Origin: a virus
Lineage: Duplodnaviria; Caudoviricetes
Virus record (IMG/VR): IMGVR_UViG_3300050645_000186
Coordinates: 1 to 64,000 of that record
Reading direction: 5' to 3' (one strand)
DNA: 64,000 nucleotides
Part shown: positions 1,966 to 52,432 of the stretch, one piece after another
Layout: each line of letters begins with the position of its first letter
How positions within the stretch are numbered: the first letter of the stretch is position 1
Notes under the pieces: generated by a model
The model's input: the letters and a program-made list of their open reading frames with translations, nothing else
Database searches by the model: none
What the model was told of the DNA's origin: nothing
Translations under genes and position numbers: made by a program

Positions 1966-2160
1966 ATGCAACACAGATTGAAGATCAGCCTTGACAAAAA
2001 CGCGAAAGGCCCCGGCATCGTGCGGTGCCGCAAGCTACCCCTGTGGGACAGGGTACTACGCCGCCTGCTGGGCGAATCGAACGGCGTCATGGTAATCGTC
2101 CCCGGCAACACCGTCAGGACGCTCACAATCCAAGAGGTGGCGGAGGGCGAGGATGACTGA
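1966..2160 (+). CDS. Conserved small phage protein
   Basis: RBS GAGGTG; homolog at the same position in element 2 (47070-47306). Confidence 0.7.
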   Translation: MQHRLKISLDKNAKGPGIVRCRKLPLWDRVLRRLLGESNGVMVIVPGNTVRTLTIQEVAEGEDD

Positions 2161-3601
2161 GCCTGTCGCCGCCAGCGGGATGCGGCTGCCCATCCGGGCC
2201 GCTCCGTACCGGCATCAGGTGGAAGCGTTCGAATTCGCCTGCGGGCTGTTCGGTTTGGAGGGCGATCCGGTGTCCACGGGTGCGGCGCTCCTCATGGAAA
2301 TGGGGTGCGGCAAGAGCCTGACCGGCATCGCGGTAGCGGGCGCGCTATACGGAGCCGGAAAAATCCGCCGGATGCTGGTGGTAGCGCCGCTCTCCATCCT
2401 CGGCGTGTGGCAGGAGGAATTCCGAAAGTTCGCGGGCTTCGACTACGCGCTGGCGGTGCTCACAGGTAGCGCCGGGAAGAAGGCGGATACCCTGCGGCAC
2501 CTTCGGGGCGCGCCCCTGCAGGTGGCGGTGATCAACTACGAAAGCGCGTGGCGCATGGAAAAGGAGCTTCTGGCGTGGGATGCAGACCTGATCGTCGCGG
2601 ACGAGGGGCACAAGATCAAAACCCACAATATCTCCGCTTCCAAGGCCATGCACCGCTTGGGCGCGAAGGCGCGGTACCGGCTGCTGCTCACGGGGACGGT
2701 CATCACCAACAAGGCCATCGATGTGTTCAGCCAGTACAAGTTCCTGAATCCGGCGGTCTTCGGCCCGAGCTACTATGTGTTCCGCAACCGGTACTTCGAT
2801 ATGGTGGGCTACGGCAACCACACCCCAGTGCTTAAACGGAGCATGGAGCCGGAGCTCATGCGCGGGCTGCACAGCATCGCGTACCGGGCGACCAAGGCCG
2901 AATGCCTCGATTTGCCGGAGACCACGGACATTGTGCGGTTTGTCGAGCTGGAACCCGCCGCCCTGCGCATCTACCGCGATCTGGTACGGGACAGCTACGC
3001 CGAGCTTGGCAAAGGTGAAGTTACCGTCACCAATATCCTCACCCGGCTGCTGCGGCTGTCGCAGCTTACGGGCGGTTTCATCGGGGACGACGAGGGCAAC
3101 ACCCCGCAGCGGATCAGCACCGCCAAGCAGGCGGCGCTCGAGGACATCGTGGAGGACGTGCTGCAGGAGGGCAGAAAGCTGGTGGTGATCGCCCGGTTCG
3201 TGCCGGAGATCGACGCCATCCGCAAGCTGCTGGAAACGAAGGGCATCCGGTACTCGCTCATCATGGGCGGCGTGAAGGATCGGGACGCGCAGATCGCCAC
3301 GTTCCAGAACGACCTGGACGTGCAGGTGTTCGTGGGGCAGATCGCCACGGCGGGGCTGGGCATCACGCTCACGGCCGCGAGCACCATGGTGTTTTACTCG
3401 CTCGATTACTCCATGAGCAATTTCGAGCAGACCAAAGCGAGAATCCATCGCCTCGGCCAGAAACACAACTGCACCTACATCTACCTGACCGCCAAAGGCA
3501 CCGTGGACGAAAAGGTGCTCACAGCGCTCAAGAACAAAGCCGACCTCGCAAAAGCGCTGGTCGACGATTACCGCAGCGGGCAAAACCCGTTTGCGCCATA
3601 G
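2153..3601 (+). CDS. SNF2-family (SF2) helicase
   Basis: MEMGCGKS Walker A, DEGH, LLLTGT, QTKARIHRLGQ motif VI. Confidence 0.92.
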   Translation: MTEPVAASGMRLPIRAAPYRHQVEAFEFACGLFGLEGDPVSTGAALLMEMGCGKSLTGIAVAGALYGAGKIRRMLVVAPLSILGVWQEEFRKFAGFDYALAVLTGSAGKKADTLRHLRGAPLQVAVINYESAWRMEKELLAWDADLIVADEGHKIKTHNISASKAMHRLGAKARYRLLLTGTVITNKAIDVFSQYKFLNPAVFGPSYYVFRNRYFDMVGYGNHTPVLKRSMEPELMRGLHSIAYRATKAECLDLPETTDIVRFVELEPAALRIYRDLVRDSYAELGKGEVTVTNILTRLLRLSQLTGGFIGDDEGNTPQRISTAKQAALEDIVEDVLQEGRKLVVIARFVPEIDAIRKLLETKGIRYSLIMGGVKDRDAQIATFQNDLDVQVFVGQIATAGLGITLTAASTMVFYSLDYSMSNFEQTKARIHRLGQKHNCTYIYLTAKGTVDEKVLTALKNKADLAKALVDDYRSGQNPFAP

Positions 3602-3610
3602 GAGGAAACA

Positions 3611-3895
3611 ATGAGACTTTTTGAAACCATCCGCATGCTTTCAGGCAATCCGACGCTCCGGGAGAATGTCGCGGATGCTTCGAACGCCGCGCTCAAAGCT
3701 GTAACCTGCGCGCTTTCCATTATGGAGGAAGCCTGCCTGACCATCGCATCTGAGCTGAAACGCATACGCGACGGCTTGCCCCGTTTCCGTGAAGATTCGC
3801 CGGAGGAGGCGCTCGCGCTTGCGTTTGAAAAGCTGGCTTGTGCGAAAAAAACCATTCAGTGCCTTGTCGAAGGGGGCGGTTTCCATGTCGAGTGA
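3611..3895 (+). CDS. Hypothetical protein (absent from element 2)
   Basis: AGGAGG RBS; overlaps the start of the next gene. Confidence 0.6.
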   Translation: MRLFETIRMLSGNPTLRENVADASNAALKAVTCALSIMEEACLTIASELKRIRDGLPRFREDSPEEALALAFEKLACAKKTIQCLVEGGGFHVE

Positions 3896-4301
3896 AAGGC
3901 TGTTCGAACTGGCCGACCGGCTGCGTGAGCTGCGCGAGGCCAAGGTGTATGCCGAGCAGGCGCTCAAAGAGGTCAACGACCAGCTCGACGAGGTGGACTA
4001 CCGCCTATCCGAGCTTATGGCCGAGACCGAAACGCAGAACTTCACGCGCGGCGGCACCATGTTCTACCTGATTTCCAAGACCCGCGCGTCTGCTACGGCC
4101 GACCGTAAGGATGAGCTGTTCGCAGCGCTGCGCGGCGAGGGCTACGGCGAGCTTGTCACGGAAACGGTCAACGCCAATTCCCTGTCCGCGTTCGTAAAGG
4201 AGCAGATCACCGAGAACGGCGACGCGCTGCCCGATTGGCTCCGGGGCTTGGTGAATGTATTTGAAAAAACCACCGTCGGCGTCCGAAAGGCCGTCAAATA
4301 A
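3885..4301 (+). CDS. Conserved phage replication-module protein (gp33-like)
   Basis: Coiled-coil N-terminus and ETVNANSLSAFVKE; homolog at 48795-49205. Confidence 0.75.
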   Translation: MSSERLFELADRLRELREAKVYAEQALKEVNDQLDEVDYRLSELMAETETQNFTRGGTMFYLISKTRASATADRKDELFAALRGEGYGELVTETVNANSLSAFVKEQITENGDALPDWLRGLVNVFEKTTVGVRKAVK

Positions 4302-4328
4302 AGAATTTTGAAGATGAGGGATTGAAGA

Positions 4329-4952
4329 ATGGCTACAAAAACAAAAGCAACGAAGCGTCTAGAGGCGCAGGTCAACAACGATGCGGAGGCCGCTATCCTT
4401 ATGCCGTATGTCGTGGAATGCGAGATCACCGGCACGTCGCCCATCCTTTTTCACCGTTGGAGCTGTGAGGATGTGGAGGCGAAGGCCACCGCTGCAAAGA
4501 ACAGCAAAGCCAAGAAAACCGACAACATTGAGGCATATCTGTATCGCAACGATAAGCGCGAGATTTGTATTCCCACCGAGTATTTCCGACAGAGCATCAT
4601 CACAGCAGCGAAATGCCGCCAAGACCCCCGCAGCCCGCGTAAAAGTGCCTGTGACCTGTTCAAGGCCAGCGTGCTTTCGATCAGCGATTTGGCTACGACC
4701 GGCTGCGGCGAACCGGACTATATCGACAAGCGCCGCGTTTGCGTGCAGCGTGCGGGGATCACCCGTCTGCGCCCGGCACTCGATGCGGGATGGAAGGTCA
4801 GGGTGCTTTTGCAGGTGCAAACGCCGGAGTACATTGCGCCGAGCTTCCTGCTTGACGTGATGGCGGATGCCGGGAGGCTGGTCGGCGTCGGGGATTTCCG
4901 CCCAACATACGGGCGTTTTCAGGTCAGCAATTTTTCGCTGCTGGCTGACTAA
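4329..4952 (+). CDS. Orphan RAMP/Cas7-like RNA-binding protein (candidate Vipr-like effector)
   Basis: RAMP-like motif order: ITGTSPILFH first strand, ICIPTEYFRQSI helix, RRVCVQRAGITRLRP hairpin, and C-terminal Gly-rich loop AGRLVGVGDFRPTYGRF; adjacent to GGY-NN arrays. The fold is inferred, not computed. Confidence 0.7.
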   Translation: MATKTKATKRLEAQVNNDAEAAILMPYVVECEITGTSPILFHRWSCEDVEAKATAAKNSKAKKTDNIEAYLYRNDKREICIPTEYFRQSIITAAKCRQDPRSPRKSACDLFKASVLSISDLATTGCGEPDYIDKRRVCVQRAGITRLRPALDAGWKVRVLLQVQTPEYIAPSFLLDVMADAGRLVGVGDFRPTYGRFQVSNFSLLAD

Positions 4953-4962
4953 TACACCAATA

Positions 4963-5054
4963 CCGGGCATGGTACGGCTCGGCCAGGCAAGGTTGGGTCA
5001 GGCAGGGTAAGCCCATCGTTTCTGGGGCAGTTTGTCGTCAAAACTGCCACCCCA
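4963..5054 (+). ncRNA. Putative guide RNA unit 1 (array 1 plus 3' hairpin)
   Basis: Non-coding array followed by CGTTT and hairpin GGCAGTTT (5026-5033), loop GTCGTCA, AAACTGCC (5041-5048). Confidence 0.6.
4966..5010 (+). repeat. GGY-NN pentamer array 1 (9 units)
   Basis: GGC-AT GGT-AC GGC-TC GGC-CA GGC-AA GGT-TG GGT-CA GGC-AG GGT-AA. Confidence 0.95.
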
Positions 5055-5058
5055 TTCC

Positions 5059-5143
5059 CCGGGCGTGGCAGGGCAAGGCAAGGTCTGGCTCGGTCAGGCA
5101 AGGCAGGGCAAGGCGTTTAGGCGGTTATTACGATAAAACCGCC
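5059..5143 (+). ncRNA. Putative guide RNA unit 2 (array 2 plus 3' hairpin)
   Basis: Array ending in CGTTT, then hairpin GGCGGTT (5120-5126) / AACCGCC (5137-5143). Confidence 0.6.
5062..5116 (+). repeat. GGY-NN pentamer array 2 (11 units)
   Basis: GGC-GT GGC-AG GGC-AA GGC-AA GGT-CT GGC-TC GGT-CA GGC-AA GGC-AG GGC-AA GGC-GT. Confidence 0.95.
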
Positions 5144-5170
5144 ATCTATTCAAAAACGGAGGAAAACACA

Positions 5171-5923
5171 ATGTCTAAAAAAGATACGGATATTCAGGTG
5201 GTCGGCAACGCATTTGCGCATCTGTCTGAATTCAATATGAGCGCGGCCATGGCCGAGGAGCTTGACGGCCTCAACGTCAATTTTGAGCGCATCAAGATAC
5301 CGGCAGGCGGCAGCACCGTGTTCGAGCTGCCCGGCGAGGAAACCGACGAACCGGATATGACCAAGGAGTTCAGCGGCGTCATTCTGTGGCACCATCCGCT
5401 CTTCGCCTTCTATACGGACAAATACACCGGGGCGAACAACCCGCCCGTCTGCGGCAGCTTCGATGGCATGACCGGCGAGGGCATGCCCGGCGGTTCCTGC
5501 GCCAAATGCCCTTACAACCAGTTTGGCTCCGGCGAAAACGGCTCCAAGGCGTGCAAAAACCGCCGCCGCATCTATGTGCTGCGCGAGGGCGAGATTTTCC
5601 CGCTGCTGCTGTCCCTGCCCACCGGCAGCCTTAAGGAGTTCACGCGCTACATCAAGCGCCTGCTCAGCAAAGGCAAGAAATCCAACGCAATCGTTACCCG
5701 TTTTTCGCTCAAAAAGGCGATGAGCGCAAGCGGCATCGCGTATTCGCAGGCGCAATTCAGCATCGACCGCGATCTGAATGTCGAGGAGTACGCGCTGATC
5801 GCTACGCTGGCTGAGCAGGTCAAGGCACACAGCAGGCGCGTCGCCTTCGAGGTGGACGAGCCTGTGGAGAATATCCCGGCGATCGACCCGGAAACCGGCG
5901 AGATCATCGAACCTTTACGGTAA
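5171..5923 (+). CDS. Conserved phage replication protein (putative ssDNA-binding/annealing)
   Basis: Sits before the DNA polymerase; CxxC (CAKC) and acidic tail (IDPETGEIIEPL); homolog at 49273-50022. Confidence 0.6.
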   Translation: MSKKDTDIQVVGNAFAHLSEFNMSAAMAEELDGLNVNFERIKIPAGGSTVFELPGEETDEPDMTKEFSGVILWHHPLFAFYTDKYTGANNPPVCGSFDGMTGEGMPGGSCAKCPYNQFGSGENGSKACKNRRRIYVLREGEIFPLLLSLPTGSLKEFTRYIKRLLSKGKKSNAIVTRFSLKKAMSASGIAYSQAQFSIDRDLNVEEYALIATLAEQVKAHSRRVAFEVDEPVENIPAIDPETGEIIEPLR

Positions 5924-5992
5924 TCAACCCGCCCGGTGCGAGTGGGAGGCATACCCTCCCTCTCGGCCCTCGGGCAGACAGGAGCAGACAGT

Positions 5993-7915
5993 ATGGCATA
6001 CAGGTGCGTGACAGTACCAAAAGAAATACACGAATACCTTCATGGCGCGGCCATCGTTGCGTTCGACTTTGAAACCGCACCGCTGGAAACGTATCGCAGC
6101 GAAGAAAAGGCTGCGCTGGATGCGCACAAATCTGTAATCGTGGGCGTGAGCCTATCGGTTGCCGAAGACAGTGCCATCTATGTCCCACTCCGGCACCGGG
6201 TTGGCGAGAATGCCGACTCGCCGGAAGCGATCATGGCGACCTTGCGTTCGGAGCTGTTTGAAAATCCCGATATCCTCAAGATCGCCCACAACCTCGCGTT
6301 CGAGGCGATGTTCCTTTATGCGCTGGGCATCGTGGTGCAGCCGCCCTGTTACGACACGATCGCGGCGGTGCGCATGACGCTCAAGAATCACACGCAGTTT
6401 CGGGCGCTGTCGGACAGCGGCCTGAAAACCTTGGTGCCCGAGCTGTTCGGCGTGGAGCTGCCCGGCTTTGAAGAAGTGACGGCGGGCCGGTTCTTTGACG
6501 AGCTTGATCCGCAGGACACGGAAACGGTGCGCTATGCCTGCGCCGACAGCGATTACGCGCTGCGGCTGTATCACCTACTCAACGGCTGGTTTGACCGTTA
6601 CCTCCCCAAGCACCGCTTCATCGTGGAAGAAATCGAGTCCCCCACGGCCGTGTATTGCGGCCTCATGAAGTACAACGGCTTGCTGGCGGATCAGGCGCGG
6701 ATGCTCGAAAAGCAGGCGGAGGCCGAGCACAGGCTCCAACAGCTCCGGGAGGAGATCGCCTTCCTGATCGGCGACGTGAACATCGGCGCGAACGCGGGTA
6801 CATCCGCGTTCAAGAGCTATCTGTTCAACGACCTCAGTCTGCCGGTGTTGAAAACCACCGCCAAGTACCAGGAGGCGGCGGACGATGAGGTCATGATCCT
6901 GCTCGCCGAGTGGTGCCGGGACAACCGGCCGGAGCTTGTGCCTTTGTTCGAGCTGGTGCAGGAGTACCGGCGCTGGGGCAAGCTCAAGTCCACGTATCTG
7001 GACGGGTATCTGCAGCATATCAACGCGGCCACCGGCAGGATACACCCCGACCTCATGCCGCTGGGCACGGAAACGGGCCGCTTCGCCAGCCGCAAGCCCA
7101 ACCTGCAAAACATGCCGCGTGCGGACGGCGACGTGATCGGCGTCAGGAGCTTCATAACCGCGCCTGCTGGCAGCGTTCTCCTCTCGCTGGACTTCTCGCA
7201 GATCGAGCTGCGCGTCGGCGCGTATTATTGCCGGGATGAAAAGATGCTGGAGACCTACCGCACGGGCGGCGACATTCATGCGCAAACCACGGCGGTCATC
7301 TACGGCATCCCGTTCGCGCAGGCGGCGGATAAGCACGCCGAGCACTACAAGGAGCGGCGCGTAATCGCAAAAAACTGCAACTTCGGTGTGTTCTTCGGGC
7401 TGTTCGCCAAGGGCCTGCAGCGCACGCTCAAGTTCAAGGCGGGCCTGAATACGCCGCTTTCGGAGTGTGAGGGGATCATCGACAATCTGAAAGCGGGTTA
7501 CCCGCGCCTGGCATCTTGGCAGGAGGAGGTCAAGCAGCGGGCGGAGTTCCGCAAATACACGCAGACGTACTTAGGCCGCCGCCGTTACCTGCCGGGCATA
7601 TCCTCATCTGATTGGGGCAAGAAGTCCTTCGCGCAAAGGTGCGCATTGAACACCCCGATCCAAGGCACCGCCGCCGACATCCTCAAGCTGGCGCTCGGGC
7701 GCATCCTCACCGGCCTGCCGGAGCGCATGTGGCTCAAGCCGCTGTTGCAGGTTCACGACGAGCTGGTCTTTGAACTGCCGGACGGCAAAGTATCCGAGGC
7801 GGTTGCTTTCATAAAAACATGCATGGAGGCGCACCCCTTTCCCGAATTTGACGTGCCGATCGTCGCCGAGGCGGCCTGCGGGCCTACCTTCGGCAACATG
7901 GCAGAAATGGAGTAA
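5993..7915 (+). CDS. Family A DNA polymerase (3'-5' exonuclease plus polymerase)
   Basis: ExoI FDFET; motif A LDFSQIELR; motif B AKNCNFG; motif C QVHDEL. Confidence 0.95.
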   Translation: MAYRCVTVPKEIHEYLHGAAIVAFDFETAPLETYRSEEKAALDAHKSVIVGVSLSVAEDSAIYVPLRHRVGENADSPEAIMATLRSELFENPDILKIAHNLAFEAMFLYALGIVVQPPCYDTIAAVRMTLKNHTQFRALSDSGLKTLVPELFGVELPGFEEVTAGRFFDELDPQDTETVRYACADSDYALRLYHLLNGWFDRYLPKHRFIVEEIESPTAVYCGLMKYNGLLADQARMLEKQAEAEHRLQQLREEIAFLIGDVNIGANAGTSAFKSYLFNDLSLPVLKTTAKYQEAADDEVMILLAEWCRDNRPELVPLFELVQEYRRWGKLKSTYLDGYLQHINAATGRIHPDLMPLGTETGRFASRKPNLQNMPRADGDVIGVRSFITAPAGSVLLSLDFSQIELRVGAYYCRDEKMLETYRTGGDIHAQTTAVIYGIPFAQAADKHAEHYKERRVIAKNCNFGVFFGLFAKGLQRTLKFKAGLNTPLSECEGIIDNLKAGYPRLASWQEEVKQRAEFRKYTQTYLGRRRYLPGISSSDWGKKSFAQRCALNTPIQGTAADILKLALGRILTGLPERMWLKPLLQVHDELVFELPDGKVSEAVAFIKTCMEAHPFPEFDVPIVAEAACGPTFGNMAEME

Positions 7916-7919
7916 CAAC

Positions 7920-8342
7920 ATGGGTATCAACATATTCAACCATGAGCATTATCCCGACCCCACGGCCTGCGCTGCGCTCACCCGGATCGAGCAAGCCGCC
8001 AGAAAAACATTCAGGCCCTGCGTGTTCATCTGCTCTCCCTTTGCCGGTGACACCGAACGCAACGTGGAGCGCGCGCGCCGGTACTGCCGCTTTGCGGTCA
8101 GCAGCGGGTACATTCCCATCGCGCCGCATGTGTATTTCCCGCAGTTCATGGATGACGATGATCAGGAGCAGCGCGACCTCGGCCTGTTCATGGGCATGGT
8201 GCTCATGAGCCGCTGTAAGGAATTATGGGTGTTCGGCAGCACCGTTTCGCGCGGCATGGCGGTGGAGATTGAAAAGGCCACGCAGCGCGGCGTCCCCATT
8301 CGGTATTTCAACACATGCTGCGAGGAGGTGCAGGCGGTATGA
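7920..8342 (+). CDS. DUF4406/DUF7768-like (nucleoside deoxyribosyltransferase-fold) protein
   Basis: VFICSPFAGD...IPIAPH...ELWVFG...SRGMAVEI. Confidence 0.75.
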   Translation: MGINIFNHEHYPDPTACAALTRIEQAARKTFRPCVFICSPFAGDTERNVERARRYCRFAVSSGYIPIAPHVYFPQFMDDDDQEQRDLGLFMGMVLMSRCKELWVFGSTVSRGMAVEIEKATQRGVPIRYFNTCCEEVQAV

Positions 8343-10849
8343 AAACCCTGAATATCCCGTTGGAGGAGTTCCTGCGTCCGTTTTTCGATCCGGGCGAAAA
8401 GATATGCCTGCGCATATTCGACGATCGCAAGACCGGCGCGTTCAAGGGCGCGAAGCTCGAAACGACCATCGCCGATGTACATGCCGCCGAGGAAACGCTG
8501 CACAAGCATAACGAAAAGAATCGCGGCATTTATTTCGTGGTCAATTACGGCGGCCACGAGGACAGCGACATCACCCGCATCAACGCGCAGTTCATGGAGT
8601 GCGACGATCTTTCTTTTGACGAGCAGATGGCGCAGATCGACGCGTTCCCGCTCCCGCCGTCGCTGATCGTGAAAACGAAAAAGTCTCTTCACACCTACTG
8701 GCTGGTAAAGGACGCCGATGTCGCATCCTTCCGCCGTGTACAAAAGCGCCTCGCGGCGCAGTTTTCCGGTGACAAGACCTGTGTCAACGAGAGCCGCGTG
8801 CTGCGCCTGCCCGGCTTCCTGCACTGCAAGGATGCGCCGGTCATGGTGGAGTGCGTCAGGTTCAGCCCCGAGCTGCGTTACACGCAGGCTGAGCTGGAGG
8901 CTGTGCTCCCTGCTGTGGAGGACGAGTCTGCCGCTATCATCGGGCCGCAGCATAAGGGTTCCCGCAAGGGGCTGGCGCTGGTCAGCCGCCGCTGCGACTT
9001 CATCCGGCATTGCACCGAGAACGCCGCGACGCTCCGGGAACACGATTGGTACGCTATGATTACCAACCTCGCGGTGTTCGAAGACGGCGATAAGCTCGTT
9101 CATGCGCTTTCCGCCAAGTACCCGAAATACAGGGCTGCCGAGACGCAGGAGAAGATCAACCATTTCCTTGAATCCGGCACCAAGCCCATGACCTGCAAGA
9201 CCATCGCGGAGAAGGGCTTCGCCTGTCCGAAGTTGGGCACCGATGCGTGCGCCTGCAAATCCCCCGCCGCGCTTTGCTACAAGCCGCTCTCCGTGGAGGA
9301 CTTGCGTGTATTTCTCGGGGAGCTTACGGTCTCTAAATCCGCTGTCGACAATGTCGCGCTGGCGCAGGGGTTCATCCGCGATTACCTTTACAACATCGAT
9401 CCGGTCGTGGCGGCTACATATATCGAGTACGAAATGAAGGAGCATTTCGGCCTCAAGGCCGGAGCCATGAAGCCGCTGGTCGCGGTACAACGTGAGCTGT
9501 ACAAGGCGTATCGCGCCAACAAAGAGACCAGGCGCGAGACGGAGGGCTCCGAACTGCCCGATTGGTACGAGGCGACCGAGCGCGGCGGCCTGCGCTTCCT
9601 GCCGGGGCTGCTGGCCAACTTCATGGCGGAGAGCGTCGATGCCTTTTACGGCGCGGGCAGCTATTTCAGCTATCAGGACGGCGTGTATTCCGAAAGCGAG
9701 GATTTATGGGCATCCGCCAAGGTGCGCGAGTTCATGATCCCTCGCTATGCCAGCATGACGGCGATCAACGATGCCGTGGGCCAGTGGCGTATGTTGATCC
9801 GCAAGCCGGTGCGGGAGATCAACTGCAACGCTTTTATAATCAACGTGAAAAATGGCCTGTACAACGTGCTCGACGATAGCTTCAAGCCGCACACGCCCGA
9901 GTATTACTCGACCGTGCAGATCAACGCGACATACAGCCCGGAGGCCAAGTGCCCGCAGTTTCTGAAATTCCTGCGCAGCATTCTCAAGGACGCGGAAATA
10001 CACCTGCTGCAGGAGATATTCGGCTACCTGATGGTGCCGGTGAACAAGGCGCAGAAGTCCTTCGTGTTCGTGGGCGCGCCCAACGCCGGAAAGTCGACCT
10101 TGCTCTCGGTAGCGCAGGAGATACTGCTCGGCAGCGAAAACGTCAGCAACATCCCGTGGCAGAACCTCGCCGACCGGTTCAACAAGGCGGAGCTGTTCGG
10201 CAAGCTGGCCAATATCTTCGCCGACCTGCCTTCAAAGAGCATTGACGACAACGGCATGTTCAAGGCGCTCACCGGCGAGGATTTCATTACCGCCGAGCGT
10301 AAGAACAAAGACCCGTTCTCGTTCCGGCCCTACGCGCGGCTGCTGTTTTCCTGCAATGAGATCCCCCGTAACTACGGCGACCGCAGCGACGGTTTTTACC
10401 GCAGGCTCATCATCCTTCGGTTTGAGAACGCGGTACCGGAGAGCAAGCGCGACCCGAACCTGCGCGAAAAGTTCTCTGCCGAGCGCGACGGCATCCTCAT
10501 GTGGGCGCTGGCCGGGCTGAAGCGGCTGATCGCCAACAGCTACGTCTTCTCCGAGACCGACGCGACCCGCGCGGAGCTGCTCCGGTACAAGATCGAGAGC
10601 AACAGCGTGCTGTCCTTCGTGGAGGATTTCTGCGAGGTGGCCGAGGGCAAGGCGGCCTTGCGCGACGAGCTATTCGCGCGGTACAGGGAGTATTGTGCCA
10701 ACGCCGGAATGAAGCCCGTGTCGCAGACCAACTTCAACAAGGAGGTCGAGACCGGGTATCCGGCCATAAAGCGGAGCCGGGATAAGCTCTCGAAGCGCCG
10801 TGTATGGCACGGGATTACCTTCTGCGAAGGGGGAAAGGGCGTTGACTGA
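8339..10849 (+). CDS. Phage/plasmid P4-family primase with SF3 (D5-like) helicase
   Basis: RepB-like primase N-terminus (SLHTYW, RVLRLPG); Walker A GAPNAGKST; RRLIILRF. Confidence 0.92.
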   Translation: MKTLNIPLEEFLRPFFDPGEKICLRIFDDRKTGAFKGAKLETTIADVHAAEETLHKHNEKNRGIYFVVNYGGHEDSDITRINAQFMECDDLSFDEQMAQIDAFPLPPSLIVKTKKSLHTYWLVKDADVASFRRVQKRLAAQFSGDKTCVNESRVLRLPGFLHCKDAPVMVECVRFSPELRYTQAELEAVLPAVEDESAAIIGPQHKGSRKGLALVSRRCDFIRHCTENAATLREHDWYAMITNLAVFEDGDKLVHALSAKYPKYRAAETQEKINHFLESGTKPMTCKTIAEKGFACPKLGTDACACKSPAALCYKPLSVEDLRVFLGELTVSKSAVDNVALAQGFIRDYLYNIDPVVAATYIEYEMKEHFGLKAGAMKPLVAVQRELYKAYRANKETRRETEGSELPDWYEATERGGLRFLPGLLANFMAESVDAFYGAGSYFSYQDGVYSESEDLWASAKVREFMIPRYASMTAINDAVGQWRMLIRKPVREINCNAFIINVKNGLYNVLDDSFKPHTPEYYSTVQINATYSPEAKCPQFLKFLRSILKDAEIHLLQEIFGYLMVPVNKAQKSFVFVGAPNAGKSTLLSVAQEILLGSENVSNIPWQNLADRFNKAELFGKLANIFADLPSKSIDDNGMFKALTGEDFITAERKNKDPFSFRPYARLLFSCNEIPRNYGDRSDGFYRRLIILRFENAVPESKRDPNLREKFSAERDGILMWALAGLKRLIANSYVFSETDATRAELLRYKIESNSVLSFVEDFCEVAEGKAALRDELFARYREYCANAGMKPVSQTNFNKEVETGYPAIKRSRDKLSKRRVWHGITFCEGGKGVD

Positions 10850-47306: not shown

Positions 47307-48738
47307 GAACATGGAACTGATGATGCCGATTAAGGCCACTCCGTATGAGCACCAAAAGAAAGCCTTTGCTTTTGCCTGCAACCAGTTCGGCGTGTTTGAC
47401 GATCATCTCAAAAGCCGCGGCACGGCTCTGCTGATGGAAATGGGTACCGGCAAGACCATCGTAAGCATTGCCGCGGCTGGTTGTATGTACCAGTACGGCA
47501 AGGTCAACCGGGTGCTTGTTGTCGCGCCGCTTTCCATCCTCGGGGTTTGGGAGGAGGAATTTGAGAAATTTGCTGACTTCCCATATTCCATGACCATCCT
47601 CAAGGGTACGTCGGCGAAGAAAAAAGAGCAGCTGACAAAGCTTCCGGACAAAGGCTTGCAGGTCGTGGTCGTGAATTACGAAAGCGCGTGGCGGCTTGAA
47701 AAGGAACTGCTGGCATATAACGCCGACCTGGTGATTGCGGACGAGGCGCACAAATTGAAGGAGAACCGCACTTCCCAGAGCAAGGGAATGCACCACATCG
47801 GCGATAAGGCAAGATACAAGCTGCTCCTTACGGGAACGGTTATCACGAACCGCGAACTGGATGTGTTCTCGCAGTACCGTTTCCTCAATCCTCAGATTTT
47901 TGGCACATCGTTTTATTCTTTCCGCAACCAATATTTTGATATGGGCGGCTACGGCAACCATACCCCTGTCTTCCGTAAATGGATGACGGATGAATTCCTG
48001 CGGAAGCTCCACTCAGTCGCGTTCCGCGTGACGAAATCGGAGTGCCTTGATCTTCCGGCAATCACCGAGGAAGTCCGTACTGTTGCTCTGGAGAGGGACG
48101 CCGCCAAATTATATGACAGCATTGAGAATGAAAGCTATGCGGAACTGGACGAGTCGGAGGTTACCACAGCGAACATCCTCACCAGGCTCCTGCGCCTGTC
48201 TCAAATCACGGGCGGGCATTTGACCGACGACGACGGTGTGGTCAATACCGTGAGCAGGGCAAAACTTGATGCGCTTTCCGACATCATTGATTCCTGTCTG
48301 GCTGAGGATAAAAAGCTTGTCATTATGGCTCGTTTCGTACCGGAACTGGACGATATTCAGGAACTTCTCGAAAAGAAAAAGATCGGCTATGCCGTGGTTC
48401 GCGGCGGCGTGAAAGATCGTGACAGTGAAATTCATCGTTTTCAATATGACAATAAGTGCCGTGTGTTCTTGGGGCAGATTGCGGCGGCCGGATTGGGCAT
48501 CACGCTCACGGCAGCATCCACAATGGCCTTTTATTCCCTTGATTATTCGATGGCGAATTTTGAACAGGCGAAGGCCCGCATCCATAGGGCCGGGCAGAAA
48601 GAAAACTGCCATTACATCTATCTCGTATGCCGGAATACAGTCGACCGCAAGGTGCTGTACGCGCTCCGTAAAAAAATGAACCTCGCCAAAATGCTGGTTG
48701 ACGATTACCGCAGGGGCAGAAATCCCTTTAAAAACTGA
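47299..48738 (+). CDS. SNF2-family helicase
   Basis: MEMGTGKT, DEAH, QAKARIHRAGQ. Confidence 0.92.
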   Translation: MPENMELMMPIKATPYEHQKKAFAFACNQFGVFDDHLKSRGTALLMEMGTGKTIVSIAAAGCMYQYGKVNRVLVVAPLSILGVWEEEFEKFADFPYSMTILKGTSAKKKEQLTKLPDKGLQVVVVNYESAWRLEKELLAYNADLVIADEAHKLKENRTSQSKGMHHIGDKARYKLLLTGTVITNRELDVFSQYRFLNPQIFGTSFYSFRNQYFDMGGYGNHTPVFRKWMTDEFLRKLHSVAFRVTKSECLDLPAITEEVRTVALERDAAKLYDSIENESYAELDESEVTTANILTRLLRLSQITGGHLTDDDGVVNTVSRAKLDALSDIIDSCLAEDKKLVIMARFVPELDDIQELLEKKKIGYAVVRGGVKDRDSEIHRFQYDNKCRVFLGQIAAAGLGITLTAASTMAFYSLDYSMANFEQAKARIHRAGQKENCHYIYLVCRNTVDRKVLYALRKKMNLAKMLVDDYRRGRNPFKN

Positions 48739-48794
48739 CCTTTCACTTATGGGGGTTGAATTTCCCGGTAGGAAGTGAAAGGAGGTAGTCACCG

Positions 48795-49205
48795 ATGGAG
48801 AACACAAAAATCTTTGAAATGGCTGACAGACTCAAGTCTCTGCAGGAACAGAAAAAAGGCCTCGAAGCGCAGACCAAGGCTCTGGGCGCGGAGATCGCCG
48901 AACTGGACGAGCAGCTTTCCGATGCCATGACAGAAGCCGAACTTGACCGTTTCTCCCGTAACGGCAGCACGTTCTATTTGAAAAGCAGATTGTTCGCGTC
49001 TCCGGTATCCGGCCGCAGGGATGAGATGCTGCAGGCTCTGAAAGAGAATGGCTACGGCAGTCTGGTCGTGGAAACGGTCAACGCAAACACACTCGCATCC
49101 TTCATCAAGGAACAGCGGGAAGCCACGGGCGAAGAAGTTCCGGCATGGCTCGGCGATACCGTCAGCACTTACGAAAAAGTGTCGGTCGGAATCCGCAAAG
49201 CGTAA
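48795..49205 (+). CDS. Conserved phage protein (gp33-like)
   Basis: Homolog of 3885-4301. Confidence 0.75.
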   Translation: MENTKIFEMADRLKSLQEQKKGLEAQTKALGAEIAELDEQLSDAMTEAELDRFSRNGSTFYLKSRLFASPVSGRRDEMLQALKENGYGSLVVETVNANTLASFIKEQREATGEEVPAWLGDTVSTYEKVSVGIRKA

Positions 49206-49272
49206 CAGCGCCGATTCAATGCGTCCACGCGTGAATCGCAACTTATTTCATTTGATCAGGAGGACATAGATT

Positions 49273-50022
49273 ATGTCAGACAAGAAGAACACGGAAATCG
49301 CAGTGAACAAGGGTTTCGCTGCTCTTGCAAACAGAGATGTACTGAACGAAGCGATGGCGGATGATTGCCAGGGGCTGGAGTTTTCTTTTGACCGCGTGAA
49401 GCTGCCCGCCGGCGGCGGAACGGCGTTTGAGATACCCTCCGCTGAAGGGGATGAATCGGAAATGGTGAAGGACATCACCGGTGTTATCGTCTACAACCAT
49501 CCCGCCTTTGCCTACTACCATGACAAGTACACAGGCGGAAACAATCCGCCGGACTGCGGCTCCTTTGACGGTGTGACGGGCATCGGCACACCCGGCGGGG
49601 ACTGCCAGAACTGCCCGTATAACAAGTTCGGCAGCGGCGAGGGTCAGAGCAAGCTGTGCAAAAACAAGCGTATGCTCTATATCCTGCGCGAGGGAGAACT
49701 GTTCCCCATCACGCTCTCCCTGCCGACCGGGTCGCTCAAATCCTTTACGCATTATGTAAAGAGCCAGCTTTCCCGCGGACGCAAACTGAGCCAGGTCGTC
49801 ACGAAAATCACGTTGAAGAAAGCAACCAACGCATCCGGCATTGCGTTTTCCCAGGCGGTCTTTGCCTTTGAACGTATGCTGAGTGCGGAGGAACGCTCTG
49901 CTGTCGCAGACGTATCGGATACGGTCAAGGCATACGCCGCAAACCTCTCTCCGGCATCCTTTATTGACGAGGAGCCGCAGGTCGATGCCGAAACGGGAGA
50001 AATTATCGAACCGTTAAAGTAA
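49273..50022 (+). CDS. Conserved phage replication protein (putative ssDNA-binding/annealing)
   Basis: Homolog of 5171-5923. Confidence 0.6.
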   Translation: MSDKKNTEIAVNKGFAALANRDVLNEAMADDCQGLEFSFDRVKLPAGGGTAFEIPSAEGDESEMVKDITGVIVYNHPAFAYYHDKYTGGNNPPDCGSFDGVTGIGTPGGDCQNCPYNKFGSGEGQSKLCKNKRMLYILREGELFPITLSLPTGSLKSFTHYVKSQLSRGRKLSQVVTKITLKKATNASGIAFSQAVFAFERMLSAEERSAVADVSDTVKAYAANLSPASFIDEEPQVDAETGEIIEPLK

Positions 50023-50084
50023 GCAGCATAAATGCCCGGAGGGGTGAAAGGCTCTTCCGGGTATTTCCATAGGAGTGATTACGC

Positions 50085-52010
50085 ATGAATACAGATTACA
50101 AATGTGTGACCACGGTGGACGGGATACGGGATTACATCGGCGGCAGCCGCATTGTTGCTTTCGACTTTGAAACTGCGCCCGATGATCCGTACCGCGAGGA
50201 GGAGAAAGCGGCGCTCGACCCGGCAAAAGCGCATATCGCCGGCTGCTCCTTTTCCGTAAAAGCAGGCACGGGTATTTATGTTCCTATTGCCCACCGCGTT
50301 GGCACAAACATAGACAAGGACGCTTTTTTCACATTCCTGGCAGCGTTTCTTTTGAATAAAACCATTACAAAGATTGCCCACAACATCGCCTTTGAATCCG
50401 GGATGGCGTATGCGAGGGGCATCGCGATACAGGCTCCCGTGTACGACACGATCTGCGCATCACAGATGAGCCTGAAAAGCCGATATGAGTTCCGCAAGTT
50501 GAGCGAAAGCGGTCTGAAACGGCTGGCGGAGGAATTGTTCGGGGAACCTCTCCCGTCCTTTTCAAGCGTCACAGCCGGGAAGCACTTTGACGAACTGGAC
50601 GCGCAGGATGAGGAAACCGTCCGCTACGGCTCTGCCGACTCGGATTTTGCCCTTCGTCTTTATAACAAATTCAACGAGTGGTTCGACCGCTATCTGCCAA
50701 AGCACCGATACATCGTGGAAGAAATCGAAAGCCCTACCGCTGTGTATCTCGGCATTATGAAATGCAACGGCATCCCGGTCAACCTCCCTCTGATGCAAGA
50801 GCGCAAAACTGAAGCGGAAGCCGAAATGGAGCGCATCCGCGGGGAAATCGAATTTATCATCGGAGATGTGAATATCGGGGCGAACTGCTCCACTCAGGCG
50901 TTCAAGAATTATCTGTATAAAGATTTGGGACTGCCCATTTTGAAAACTACAGAGACAAACCGCGAGGCGGCGGACGATATGACCATGACGCTCCTTAAAG
51001 AATGGTGCGATGAGAACCGGCCGGAACTGTCGGGGCTGTTTACGCTGGTGCAGGAATACCGCAAGTGGGGCAAAATCAAATCCACCTATATTGACGGGTA
51101 CTTGAAATACTTAAATCCAGTGACGGGCTGCATCCATCCGGAACTGTTCGCCCTGTCTACGGATACTGGCAGGATGAACTGCCGGAATCCCAACGCGCAG
51201 AATATGCCGCGAAAAACCAACGATCCCATTGGCGTCCGGAACTTCATCAAAGCGCCGGAGGGCTGTCTTATTCTCTCGCTCGATTTCTCGCAGATAGAGC
51301 TTCGGGTCGGCGCGTTTTACTGCCGTGATGAGAGGATGCTCGACACCTACCGCAAAAACGGCGATATCCATGCCGCTACGACCAGCGTCATTTTCGGTGT
51401 AAGTTATGAAGAAGCTCAGGACAAGCATTCGGAGAACTATAAGGAACACAGGACGATTGCCAAAAACGTGAATTTCGGCACGTTCTACGGGCTGTTCCCC
51501 AGAGGACTGCAAAAGACGCTGAAATTCAAGGCAGGGGTTGAAAAACAGCTAAGTGAATGTGAGGACATTCTCTTTAACCTCAAGCACGGATACAAAGGTT
51601 TGACGGCATGGCAGGAAGAAACGAAAGCGGATGCCGCAAGGCGACTGTATTCCGAAACCTGGCTCGGCAGGCGCAGGTACCTTCCCGGCATTGCGTCGGA
51701 CAACTGGGGACAGAAGTCGTTTGCGGAGCGGTGCTCACTGAACACACCTATCCAAGGAACGGCGGCGGATATTCTGAAACTCGCCATCACAAGGATACTT
51801 GCCGGGCTGCCGGAGCGGAAATGGCTGAGGCCCATCCTTCAGATACACGATGAGCTGACTTTCATTATCCCGGAGGACAGGCTGTCGGAAGCGGTGGCTT
51901 TTATTCGCACCTGTATGGAAGAAAAGCCTTTCCCGGAGTTTGACCTTCCGCTGGTCGCGGAGGCTTCCGCGGGACCGACCTTTGGAATGATGGAAGAACT
52001 GGAGGACTGA
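50085..52010 (+). CDS. Family A DNA polymerase
   Basis: FDFET, LDFSQIELR, AKNVNFGTFYG, QIHDEL. Confidence 0.95.
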   Translation: MNTDYKCVTTVDGIRDYIGGSRIVAFDFETAPDDPYREEEKAALDPAKAHIAGCSFSVKAGTGIYVPIAHRVGTNIDKDAFFTFLAAFLLNKTITKIAHNIAFESGMAYARGIAIQAPVYDTICASQMSLKSRYEFRKLSESGLKRLAEELFGEPLPSFSSVTAGKHFDELDAQDEETVRYGSADSDFALRLYNKFNEWFDRYLPKHRYIVEEIESPTAVYLGIMKCNGIPVNLPLMQERKTEAEAEMERIRGEIEFIIGDVNIGANCSTQAFKNYLYKDLGLPILKTTETNREAADDMTMTLLKEWCDENRPELSGLFTLVQEYRKWGKIKSTYIDGYLKYLNPVTGCIHPELFALSTDTGRMNCRNPNAQNMPRKTNDPIGVRNFIKAPEGCLILSLDFSQIELRVGAFYCRDERMLDTYRKNGDIHAATTSVIFGVSYEEAQDKHSENYKEHRTIAKNVNFGTFYGLFPRGLQKTLKFKAGVEKQLSECEDILFNLKHGYKGLTAWQEETKADAARRLYSETWLGRRRYLPGIASDNWGQKSFAERCSLNTPIQGTAADILKLAITRILAGLPERKWLRPILQIHDELTFIIPEDRLSEAVAFIRTCMEEKPFPEFDLPLVAEASAGPTFGMMEELED

Positions 52011-52432
52011 TGATGTACAAAAATAGCGAAGGCTATGCCGATCCGACCGCGGGAGCGGCAATCAGCCGGATTATGAAGGAATATCAGGAGCAGCAAAAAC
52101 AGCGTTATGCCGACAAGAACCGCCGGAAGATCTATGTGGCTTCCAGATACGCCGGCGACGTGGACGCAAATGTCGCGGCGGCGATACGGTACTGCCGCCG
52201 TGTAATTGATGAGGGACATATGCCGATTGCGAGCCACCTTCTGTATCCGCAAATACTGAACGACGACAATCCAAACGAACGCGAACTGGGGCTGCTGTTT
52301 GGCCTGGCGCTTCTCCGCCTGTGCGATGAGGTGTGGGTATTCGGCGCGGTTTCACCGGGTGTCGCTCGGGAGATTGAAGAGGCGGAGCGGCTGAAAAAAA
52401 GGCTGCGATATTTTAAGGAGGCGGACGTATGA
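52010..52432 (+). CDS. DUF4406/DUF7768-like protein
   Basis: IYVASRYAGD...PIASH...EVWVFG. Confidence 0.75.
   Translation: MMYKNSEGYADPTAGAAISRIMKEYQEQQKQRYADKNRRKIYVASRYAGDVDANVAAAIRYCRRVIDEGHMPIASHLLYPQILNDDNPNERELGLLFGLALLRLCDEVWVFGAVSPGVAREIEEAERLKKRLRYFKEADV

What the first reader, a model, noticed from the sequence alone, without database searches (positions are those of the whole stretch)
4963..5143. Two guide-like units with a shared grammar and readable dinucleotide codes
Both units follow CCG-(GGYNN)n-..CGTTT-hairpin. Code 1 is AT AC TC CA AA TG CA AG AA. Code 2 is GT AG AA AA CT TC CA AA AG AA (GT); the last GT may belong to the CGTTT tail. GGY is invariant in 20/20 units while array 1 alone uses 7 different dinucleotides, which is not what slippage-derived microsatellites look like. 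The arrays share a 16/17-nt block (4976-4992 vs 5087-5103) and both have AG AA near the end, suggesting one arose from the other by duplication and was then re-programmed. The two hairpins differ in sequence but sit at equivalent positions, as processing or protection signals would. If every third target base is skipped, as I recall for VIPR, targets would read ATnACnTCnCAnAAnTGnCAnAGnAA and GTnAGnAAnAAnCTnTCnCAnAAnAGnAA on one strand.
Basis: partly seen in the sequence, partly recalled or inferred. Interest (0 to 1): 0.85.

Follow-up and report, generated by a model that had tools for sequence, protein, structure and literature searches.

The report
Prophage VIPR locus: Vipr plus two guides
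The two five-letter-repeat tracts are guide-RNA genes of a VIPR system, a CRISPR-like, phage-borne RNA-guided DNA silencer first described in 2026; they sit right behind their Cas7-like protein gene in a prophage, so this is a genuine but already known kind of system, and what it targets is still unknown.

Summary
Window 4966-5010 holds 9 GGYNN units and 5062-5116 holds 11, with GGY intact in 20 of 20. Each tract is followed by CGTTT and a hairpin. These are the only such runs in the 77-kb record.

The ORF directly upstream (4329-4952, 207 aa) is a Vipr protein. Its family profile matches the solved SUSP1 Vipr at E=1.8e-12, the GGY-reading residues are kept, and the predicted fold is Cas7-like.

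Relatives at 53-79% identity carry GGYNN arrays beside their vipr gene. Their NN codes are unrelated, GGY is conserved, and the tail hairpin covaries.

The vipr-plus-arrays block is a cassette. The sister prophage on the same record lacks it, and so does a roughly 96%-identical relative in a sludge metagenome.

So this is a VIPR locus (bioRxiv 10.64898/2026.04.26.720920): a new member of a known kind. This scan already holds 195 notes matching VIPR search terms, from at least 159 genomes.

No natural target was found. Matches under the 1-nt-skip rule stay at control level in this record (sister prophage included), IMG/VR, JGI metagenomes and 401 genomes of one relative's host order (an Oscillospiraceae MAG).

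- The CCG prefix is not conserved in relatives.
- The shared "AA" before the tail and the final GGCGT are probably scaffold, not code.
- No accessory (vap) gene lies in the cassette.

The parts
4329..4952 (+). vipr gene (207 aa, P0001): a Cas7-like RAMP protein that binds one GGYNN unit per protomer
   Evidence: phmmer vs PDB hits SUSP1 Vipr 36pp_D at E=5.4e-8; the family profile gives E=1.8e-12 over residues 29-199. H42, R148, D189, F190 and R191 align to SUSP1 H17, R138, D177, W178 and R179 and are invariant or nearly so in 34 homologues. The AF2 model has pLDDT 86. Top Foldseek hits are Cas7/Csm3/Cas7-11 at E about 2e-6. Also matches phrog_4652.
4966..5010 (+). vrRNA 1 repeat tract: 9 GGYNN units, code AT AC TC CA AA TG CA AG AA
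   Evidence: identical in three further assemblies and in contigs of runs X6-X8
5011..5055 (+). vrRNA 1 tail: a degenerate unit GCCCA, then TCGTTT, then a hairpin at 5024-5051 with a bulged A, followed by the CCCCATT motif found at internal tails
   Evidence: fold; covariance model R1 scores 37.3 bits, E=6e-8; covariation
5062..5111 (+). vrRNA 2 repeat tract: 10 GGYNN units, code GT AG AA AA CT TC CA AA AG AA
5112..5150 (+). vrRNA 2 tail: conserved GGCGTTT followed by a hairpin at 5120-5143
   Evidence: fold; R1 scores 41 bits, E=5e-9; GGCGTTT precedes the hairpin in most relatives' tails
4302..5170 (+). VIPR cassette (vipr plus two vrRNA genes) inserted between the DUF7307 gene and the 250-aa replication-module gene
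   Evidence: The sister prophage at 47317-54906 has SNF2, DUF7307, the 250-aa gene, PolA and primase, but no vipr or arrays. A contig of run X7 joins 4301 to 5227 with 69 other letters between flanks about 96% identical.
3789..4301 (+). Upstream flank: DUF7307 (Pam3 gp33-like) gene of the phage replication module. It is not part of the cassette.
   Evidence: Pfam PF23984 at E=3e-46; a homologue is present in the sister prophage
5171..5923 (+). Downstream flank: 250-aa gene (phrog_23155) with its own ribosome-binding site directly after tail 2. It belongs to the phage backbone, not the cassette.

Best explanation
This is a VIPR (Viral Interference Programmable Repeat) locus carried as a small cassette in the replication/early operon of a temperate phage from anaerobic-digester and sludge communities. 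It consists of a vipr gene (4329-4952) and two vrRNA genes (about 4963-5055 and 5059-5150).

The likely mechanism is inferred from the SUSP1 and P. fulva systems. The arrays are transcribed on the + strand, probably as part of the operon transcript, since no promoter-like or terminator-like site was found around them. They would then be trimmed to RNAs of about 90-95 nt.

One Vipr protomer binds each GGYNN unit. The conserved His, Arg and Asp-Phe-Arg residues sequester the GGY bases and present the NN bases. The 3' hairpin caps the filament.

The 9-10 NN pairs then base-pair with a 26-29-bp DNA site, skipping every third target base. The bound filament blocks transcription of a competing mobile element.

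Shown here: the sequence anatomy, Vipr homology and fold, conservation of the GGY-reading residues, NN turnover with GGY kept, tail covariation, and presence/absence of the cassette. Inferred only: expression, processing, RNP formation, DNA binding, silencing, and the identity of the target.
For: - Array anatomy and non-randomness.
- The upstream ORF is a Vipr: PDB 36pp_D 'SUSP1 Vipr protein' at E=5.4e-8 for the single sequence and 1.8e-12 for the profile across nearly the full length.
- The residues that read GGY in the SUSP1 cryo-EM work (H17, R138, D177, W178, R179; paper 10.64898/2026.04.26.720927) align to H42, R148, D189, F190 and R191. These are invariant or nearly so in 34 homologues.
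- The confident AF2 model matches Cas7-family RAMPs.
- The published definition fits: 9-16 YNNGG repeats, conserved GGY, hypervariable NN, a structured 3' tail, intergenic regions flanking vipr, mostly proviral.
- More than 10 related loci have GGYNN arrays on the vipr strand next to a vipr homologue, with unrelated NN codes.
- In 112 tail-anchored units, information content is 1.85, 1.40 and 0.72 bits at G, G, Y against 0.14 and 0.04 bits at N, N.
- The tail model finds 17 hits at E<1e-4, all on the + strand beside vipr homologues. Four of 8 stem pairs show compensatory changes, and 86.8% of cells are paired against 53% or less when the partner is slid.
- No self-target passes 80% NN match, as the paper reports for its own loci.
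- The cassette is present or absent among near relatives.
Against: - No natural target was found, so the guide function is unconfirmed for these two RNAs.
  - Best 1-nt-skip matches in the 77-kb record are 13/18 and 14/20, equal to shuffled guides.
  - Exact matches in IMG/VR number 2 and 1, against 2 and 5 for reversed controls.
  - The 7 exact vr2 matches in JGI metagenomes lie in unrelated contigs of 31-42% GC.
  - In 401 genomes of the order of G001 (the Oscillospiraceae MAG that carries relative L013), there are 8 hits at 2 mismatches or fewer against 9 for the control.
- No vap accessory gene lies in the cassette.
- No promoter-like site precedes the arrays.
- The SUSP1-type tail pseudoknot was not examined.
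- W178 of SUSP1 is Phe here.
Confidence: 0.9

Rival explanations
1. This is a VIPR-family locus whose RNAs do not silence a rival element. Instead they act on the phage's own or the host's DNA (self-regulation or decoy sites), or they use a pairing rule other than the 1-nt skip.
For: No target was found in mobile-element collections. The arrays sit inside the phage's own replication operon. The October 2026 paper describes vrRNAs that redirect Vipr to host decoy sites.
Against: Skips of 0, 1, 2 and 3 nt were all scanned on the whole 77-kb record and gave only null-level matches apart from the arrays themselves. The GGY-reading residues are those of SUSP1, which argues for the same geometry. 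The host chromosome could not be searched.
Confidence: 0.06
2. This is a decaying or silent remnant: the arrays and vipr are no longer used.
For: There is no vap gene, only two guides, and no leader hairpin after the vipr stop codon although four relatives have one. Tail 1 has a degenerate junction, GCCCATCGTTT instead of GGCGTTT.
Against: The vipr ORF is intact with all key residues. GGY holds in 20/20 units. Both hairpins are intact and score 37-41 bits. The cassette is letter-identical in three further assemblies, and contigs of three more runs from three studies show no differences where they cover it.
Confidence: 0.03
3. This is not an RNA guide at all. It would be a slippage microsatellite, a G-quadruplex-prone tract (GG runs spaced by 3 nt), or protein-binding iterons of the replication module.
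For: The 5-nt period with GG every 5 nt could in principle form two-layer G-quadruplexes. The location is between replication genes.
Against: Slippage would copy the NN bases as well, yet array 1 has 7 distinct dinucleotides in 9 units and array 2 has 6 in 10. The tract always travels with a vipr homologue and a covarying hairpin, on the gene strand, across divergent phages. The sister prophage replicates without it.
Confidence: 0.01

Closest known systems
Type II VIPR of Escherichia phage SUSP1 and the Pseudomonas fulva prophage (bioRxiv 10.64898/2026.04.26.720920; structures in 10.64898/2026.04.26.720927, PDB 36pp)
   Same: A Vipr protein of about 200 aa with detectable sequence homology and the same GGY-reading residues. 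vrRNAs of 9-11 GGYNN units, each with its own structured 3' tail, set in tandem directly downstream of vipr. A phage or prophage carrier. No self-target.
   Different: Identity to SUSP1 Vipr is low: 39% over the C-terminal 75 residues by tblastn to Felix-O1-type phages. No vap1-like gene lies in the cassette. The tail is a simple hairpin after CGTTT, and a pseudoknot was neither seen nor tested. There are only two guides. The host lineage is probably Clostridia-type anaerobes rather than Proteobacteria; that rests on a single clue, a 71% relative in an Oscillospiraceae MAG, and is not shown. The VIPR type (I-VII) cannot be assigned because the paper's classification tables are not held.
Class 1 CRISPR Cas7 backbone filaments (Csm3, Cmr4, type VII Cas7, Cas7-11)
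   Same: RAMP fold with RRM core, G-rich loop and thumb (Foldseek E about 2e-6, probability 1.0). One protomer binds per fixed stretch of guide, with periodic base flipping.
   Different: There are no CRISPR repeats or spacers, no cas1/cas2 and no other cas genes. The period is 5 nt with 2 pairing bases, not 6 nt with 5. The guide is hard-coded in a tandem repeat.
Solo or orphan vrRNAs of satellites and vipr-less phages (bioRxiv 10.64898/2026.10.15.759431)
   Same: The same GGYNN-plus-tail RNA grammar.
   Different: Here the vrRNAs sit with their own vipr gene. The sister prophage and the rest of the record carry no solo vrRNA.

Membership tests
VIPR system | Vipr protein: a stand-alone RAMP (RRM core, G-loop, thumb) homologous to the published Vipr proteins | tested here: met
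   PDB 36pp_D SUSP1 Vipr at E=5.4e-8 and, for the profile, E=1.8e-12 over 171 of 206 positions. The AF2 model has pLDDT 86. Foldseek top hits are Cas7-family.
VIPR system | Residues that sequester GGY (SUSP1 H17, R138, D177, W178, R179) | tested here: met
   They align to H42, R148, D189, F190 and R191 (alignment; residue roles). H42, R148, D189 and F190 are invariant and R191 is at least 90% conserved in 34 homologues. Trp to Phe keeps the aromatic ring.
VIPR system | vrRNA gene: 9-16 tandem GGY/NN pentamers with conserved GGY and hypervariable NN | tested here: met
   9 and 10-11 units with GGY in 20/20. Family-wide information content is 1.85, 1.40 and 0.72 bits against 0.14 and 0.04 bits.
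VIPR system | Conserved structured 3' tail after the repeat tract | tested here: met
   Hairpins fold with z about -2.5. The covariance model finds 17 hits. Four of 8 pairs are compensatory, and 86.8% of cells pair against 53% or less in slid controls. The alignment was fitted to the model, which favours the structure. A pseudoknot was not tested.
VIPR system | vrRNA genes in the intergenic DNA flanking vipr, on a viral or proviral element | tested here: met
   The arrays start 14 nt after the vipr stop codon. The context is a phage replication module. The record is a virus record.
VIPR system | Accessory gene (vap) beside vipr; the paper calls this typical, not universal | tested here: not met
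   The cassette, as defined against the sister prophage, holds only vipr and the arrays. The neighbouring 94-aa and 250-aa ORFs have no Pfam or PADLOC hit that suggests DNA binding. The paper's own wording is 'typically', so this does not exclude membership.
VIPR system | Natural target that matches the NN code under the 1-nt-skip rule | tested here: inconclusive
   No match above controls.
VIPR system | Expression of vrRNAs of about 100 nt that co-purify with Vipr and repress a matching target | not testable with these tools
   Requires small-RNA sequencing, a pull-down and a reporter assay.
VIPR type II (SUSP1 / P. fulva clade) | Placement in the type II clade of the Vipr phylogeny, with vap1 | not tested
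   The classification data (fig. 5, data S4) are not held as text. The array layout resembles type II, but no vap1 is present.

The most novel reading that the evidence does not exclude
In this clade VIPR may be a self-sufficient mobile cassette without a vap gene. Its arrays are bracketed by the same hairpin on both sides in relatives (hairpin, GGYNN tract, hairpin, GGYNN tract, hairpin; L013, L018, L019, L021). That would resemble a proto repeat-spacer layout in which the hairpin is the processing signal, perhaps cut by Vipr itself or by a host RNase. The cassette moves between near-identical phages as a unit, arming one of two nested sister prophages but not the other.
Probability: 0.2. Interest if true: 0.55.

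Novelty: new member of a known kind. Interest (0 to 1): 0.3.

Why it matters
This is a clean natural example of the newly described VIPR class outside the studied E. coli and Pseudomonas systems. It is minimal (one protein, two guides, no accessory gene) and easy to clone as an 870-bp block, so it could serve to test how general the 1-nt-skip code and the hairpin tail are.

The presence or absence of the cassette between near-identical phages, and between two nested sister prophages, gives a natural setting for asking what advantage VIPR gives a temperate phage. It does not change what is known about the class, and its targets remain unidentified.

Tried and rejected
1. Rfam scan of 4000-6500 with permissive thresholds gave only noise (NiCo at E 0.38, ceN47 at E 5.3). 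No curated family covers vrRNAs.

2. Self or sister-prophage targeting: both guides, with and without the final GT, were scanned at skips of 0-3 nt over all 77,146 bases. The best scores (13/18, 14/20, 15/22) equal shuffled-guide maxima, and the only full matches are the arrays themselves at skip 3.

3. IMG/VR exact 1-nt-skip matches: vr1 has 2 (L024, L025) and vr2 has 1 (L026, in frame in an HNH-like ORF of a 40% GC phage). Reversed-pattern controls gave 2 and 5, so this is chance level. None of the hits extends to the flanking CG or GT unit.

4. JGI metagenome contigs, vr2 exact: 7 hits. Four are one AT-rich element from a single study; the rest come from ocean or lake contigs at 31-42% GC. 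They show no convergence and do not resemble the 55% GC phage. vr1 could not be scanned there.

5. In 401 genomes of the order of G001 (the Oscillospiraceae MAG that carries L013), vr2 at 2 mismatches or fewer gave 8 hits against 9 for the reversed control. vr1 was not run.

6. Guides of nine related VIPR loci (120 windows of 9 units) against this record gave a distribution identical to shuffled guides. The window's guides against 108 kb of relatives' loci also gave null results.

7. Sigma-70 promoter and intrinsic terminator scan of 3500-5400: no promoter, and no terminator on the + strand.

8. Sequencing runs: no RNA holder is listed. X16, labelled RNA-Seq but probably DNA, covers only parts of vipr and not the arrays. 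All runs laid were contigs, so nothing can be said about expression or RNA ends.

9. Pfam, PHROGs and PADLOC give no name for P0001 beyond phrog_4652 'unknown function'.

10. Relatives of the window's genome could not be drawn because it is a virus record.

Full report
**What is there.** On the + strand, the 218-nt gap between two genes holds two tracts with a strict 5-nt period.
- 4966-5010 has 9 units and 5062-5116 has 11 units of GGYNN.
- GGY is intact in all 20 units.
- Each tract is followed by CGTTT and a stable hairpin: 5024-5051 at -14 kcal/mol and 5120-5143 at -11 kcal/mol, both with z about -2.5 against shuffles.
- No other run of four or more perfect units occurs in the window. A caller that tolerates one bad unit finds no other run longer than 5 units in the 77-kb record.
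- Shuffled copies of the window never exceed 5 units.
- The 16/17-nt shared block is real.

**The neighbouring gene.** The ORF that ends 14 nt before array 1 (4329-4952, 207 aa, P0001) has no Pfam name and matches only phrog_4652, 'unknown function'.
- Against the sequences of solved structures it hits one entry only, 'SUSP1 Vipr protein' (36pp_D), at E=5.4e-8.
- A profile of 34 homologues hits the same entry at E=1.8e-12 over almost the whole length.
- The cryo-EM paper on SUSP1 Vipr names the residues that hold the GGY bases: H17, R138, D177, W178 and R179. In the HMMER alignment these fall on H42, R148, D189, F190 and R191.
- The first four are invariant and R191 is nearly invariant in the 34 homologues.
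- An AlphaFold2 model built on that alignment is confident, with pLDDT 86.4 and pTM 0.78.
- Its best structural matches are Cas7-family RAMPs (type VII Cas7, Csm3, Cas7-11) at Foldseek E about 2e-6 and probability 1.0.
- The fold library predates release of the Vipr structures, so Vipr itself could not appear there.

**The known system.** VIPR (Viral Interference Programmable Repeat) was described in 2026 (bioRxiv 10.64898/2026.04.26.720920).
- It consists of a stand-alone RAMP protein, Vipr, mostly on phages and prophages.
- Its vrRNAs have 9-16 YNNGG repeats with conserved GGY and hypervariable NN, followed by a structured tail, and are encoded in the intergenic DNA around vipr.
- The NN dinucleotides pair with double-stranded DNA while every third target base is skipped. 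Binding represses transcription.
- Natural targets are competing satellites and prophages.

**Relatives.** P0001 has thousands of metagenomic homologues.
- I fetched about 20 loci at 53-79% identity from IMG/VR, an Oscillospiraceae MAG and Logan/JGI/ENA contigs. I also fetched phage DSL-LC04, where the homologue is mis-annotated as an HTH regulator.
- Most of them carry GGYNN arrays on the vipr strand directly beside the gene. The NN codes are unrelated to those here.
- To avoid circularity I anchored on the tail only and read eight units upstream of 14 tails. Information content is 1.85, 1.40 and 0.72 bits at G, G, Y against 0.14 and 0.04 bits at the two N positions.
- The same phage in three other assemblies has letter-identical arrays. 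Contigs of three further runs show no differences across the arrays.

**The tail.**
- A covariance model built on 13 tails finds 17 matches at E<1e-4 in the window and five related loci. All are on the gene strand beside vipr homologues.
- Four of the eight stem pairs show compensatory changes. 86.8% of cells pair, against 53% or less when the 3' partner is slid, and no shuffle reaches the covariation score. The caveat is that the alignment was fitted to the model.
- The preceding unit is often GGCAA (7 of the 14 tail-anchored rows). The shared 'AA' end of the two codes may therefore be scaffold rather than evidence of duplication and re-programming.
- The CCG prefix is not conserved in relatives.
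- In four relatives the model found a copy of the hairpin directly after the vipr stop codon, ahead of the first array. There the tracts are bracketed by hairpins on both sides. The window lacks this leader hairpin.

**Context.** The record is a 77-kb virus record that holds two related prophages, a lead from earlier notes of this scan.
- The cassette sits in the replication module: SNF2 helicase, DUF7307, vipr, arrays, a 250-aa gene, DNA polymerase A, primase.
- The sister prophage has the same module at 47317-54906 but neither vipr nor arrays.
- A contig in a sludge metagenome joins 4301 to 5227 through 69 other letters, with flanks about 96% identical.
- The block 4302-5170 is therefore a gain/loss cassette holding only vipr and two vrRNA genes. 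No vap gene is in it.
- No promoter-like or + strand terminator-like site lies around it, and the next gene's ribosome-binding site follows tail 2 directly. Co-transcription with the operon followed by processing is the simplest reading; this is inference.
- Runs that hold the sequence come from anaerobic digesters, sludge and sediment.

**Targets.** I applied the published 1-nt-skip rule, and also 0-, 2- and 3-nt skips, to the whole record including the sister prophage.
- The best matches are 13/18 and 14/20, which is what shuffled guides give. This fits the paper's finding of no self-targets and rules out the sister prophage as a target under any of the four rules.
- Exact matches in IMG/VR number 2 and 1, no more than for reversed-pattern controls at 2 and 5.
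- The seven exact vr2 matches in JGI metagenome contigs lie in unrelated AT-rich DNA.
- 401 genomes of the order of G001, the Oscillospiraceae MAG that carries relative L013, give 8 hits at two mismatches or fewer, against 9 for the control.
- Relatives' guides do not hit this record, and these guides do not hit relatives' vipr loci.
- The guides are short (16-20 informative bases) and the large collections could only be scanned for exact matches. This is therefore a weak negative: the targets are unknown, not absent.

**Verdict.** The locus is a VIPR system, a new member of a kind published in 2026. It is also seen often elsewhere in this scan: 195 notes matching VIPR search terms, in at least 159 genomes. 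Its particular features are modest: no vap gene, a two-guide cassette, presence or absence between sister phages, and hairpin-bracketed arrays in relatives. Function is inferred by homology only.

Noticed in passing
L013:3635-3670, L018:1089-1121, L019:3628-3662, L021:3621-3656: In four related loci a copy of the vrRNA tail hairpin sits directly after the vipr stop codon, before the first GGYNN tract. The tracts are therefore bracketed by hairpins on both sides, in a repeat-spacer-like layout. The window has no such leader hairpin.
   Followed up: partly
window 47317-54906 vs 2153-10849: The sister prophage carries the same replication module (SNF2, DUF7307, the 250-aa gene, PolA, primase) at 45-63% protein identity. 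It lacks vipr, the arrays and the 94-aa ORF at 3611-3895.
   Followed up: partly
window 4301/5227 (run X7): A sludge-metagenome contig about 96% identical in the flanks joins the end of the DUF7307 gene to the 250-aa gene through 69 other letters. This is a near relative of this phage without the VIPR cassette.
   Followed up: no
L022:2762-2951 and 3654-3943; L020:2095-2394: Some relatives have very long uninterrupted GGYNN runs of 27-42 units, partly with internal duplications, and one gene caller read such a run as a 364-aa ORF. They may be the 'staggered' overlapping vrRNA arrays that the VIPR paper mentions.
   Followed up: no
L035 (phage DSL-LC04, OR003939.1 22429-23046): The Vipr homologue of this cultured-lake phage (58% identity) is annotated as a 'helix-turn-helix transcriptional regulator'. 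GGYNN tracts lie in the 320-nt gap upstream of it.
   Followed up: partly
window 5171-5923: The 250-aa protein (phrog_23155, no Pfam hit) has a Cys-rich motif (C-x-x-C ... C) and is conserved next to DNA polymerase A in this phage group. Its function is unknown.
   Followed up: no
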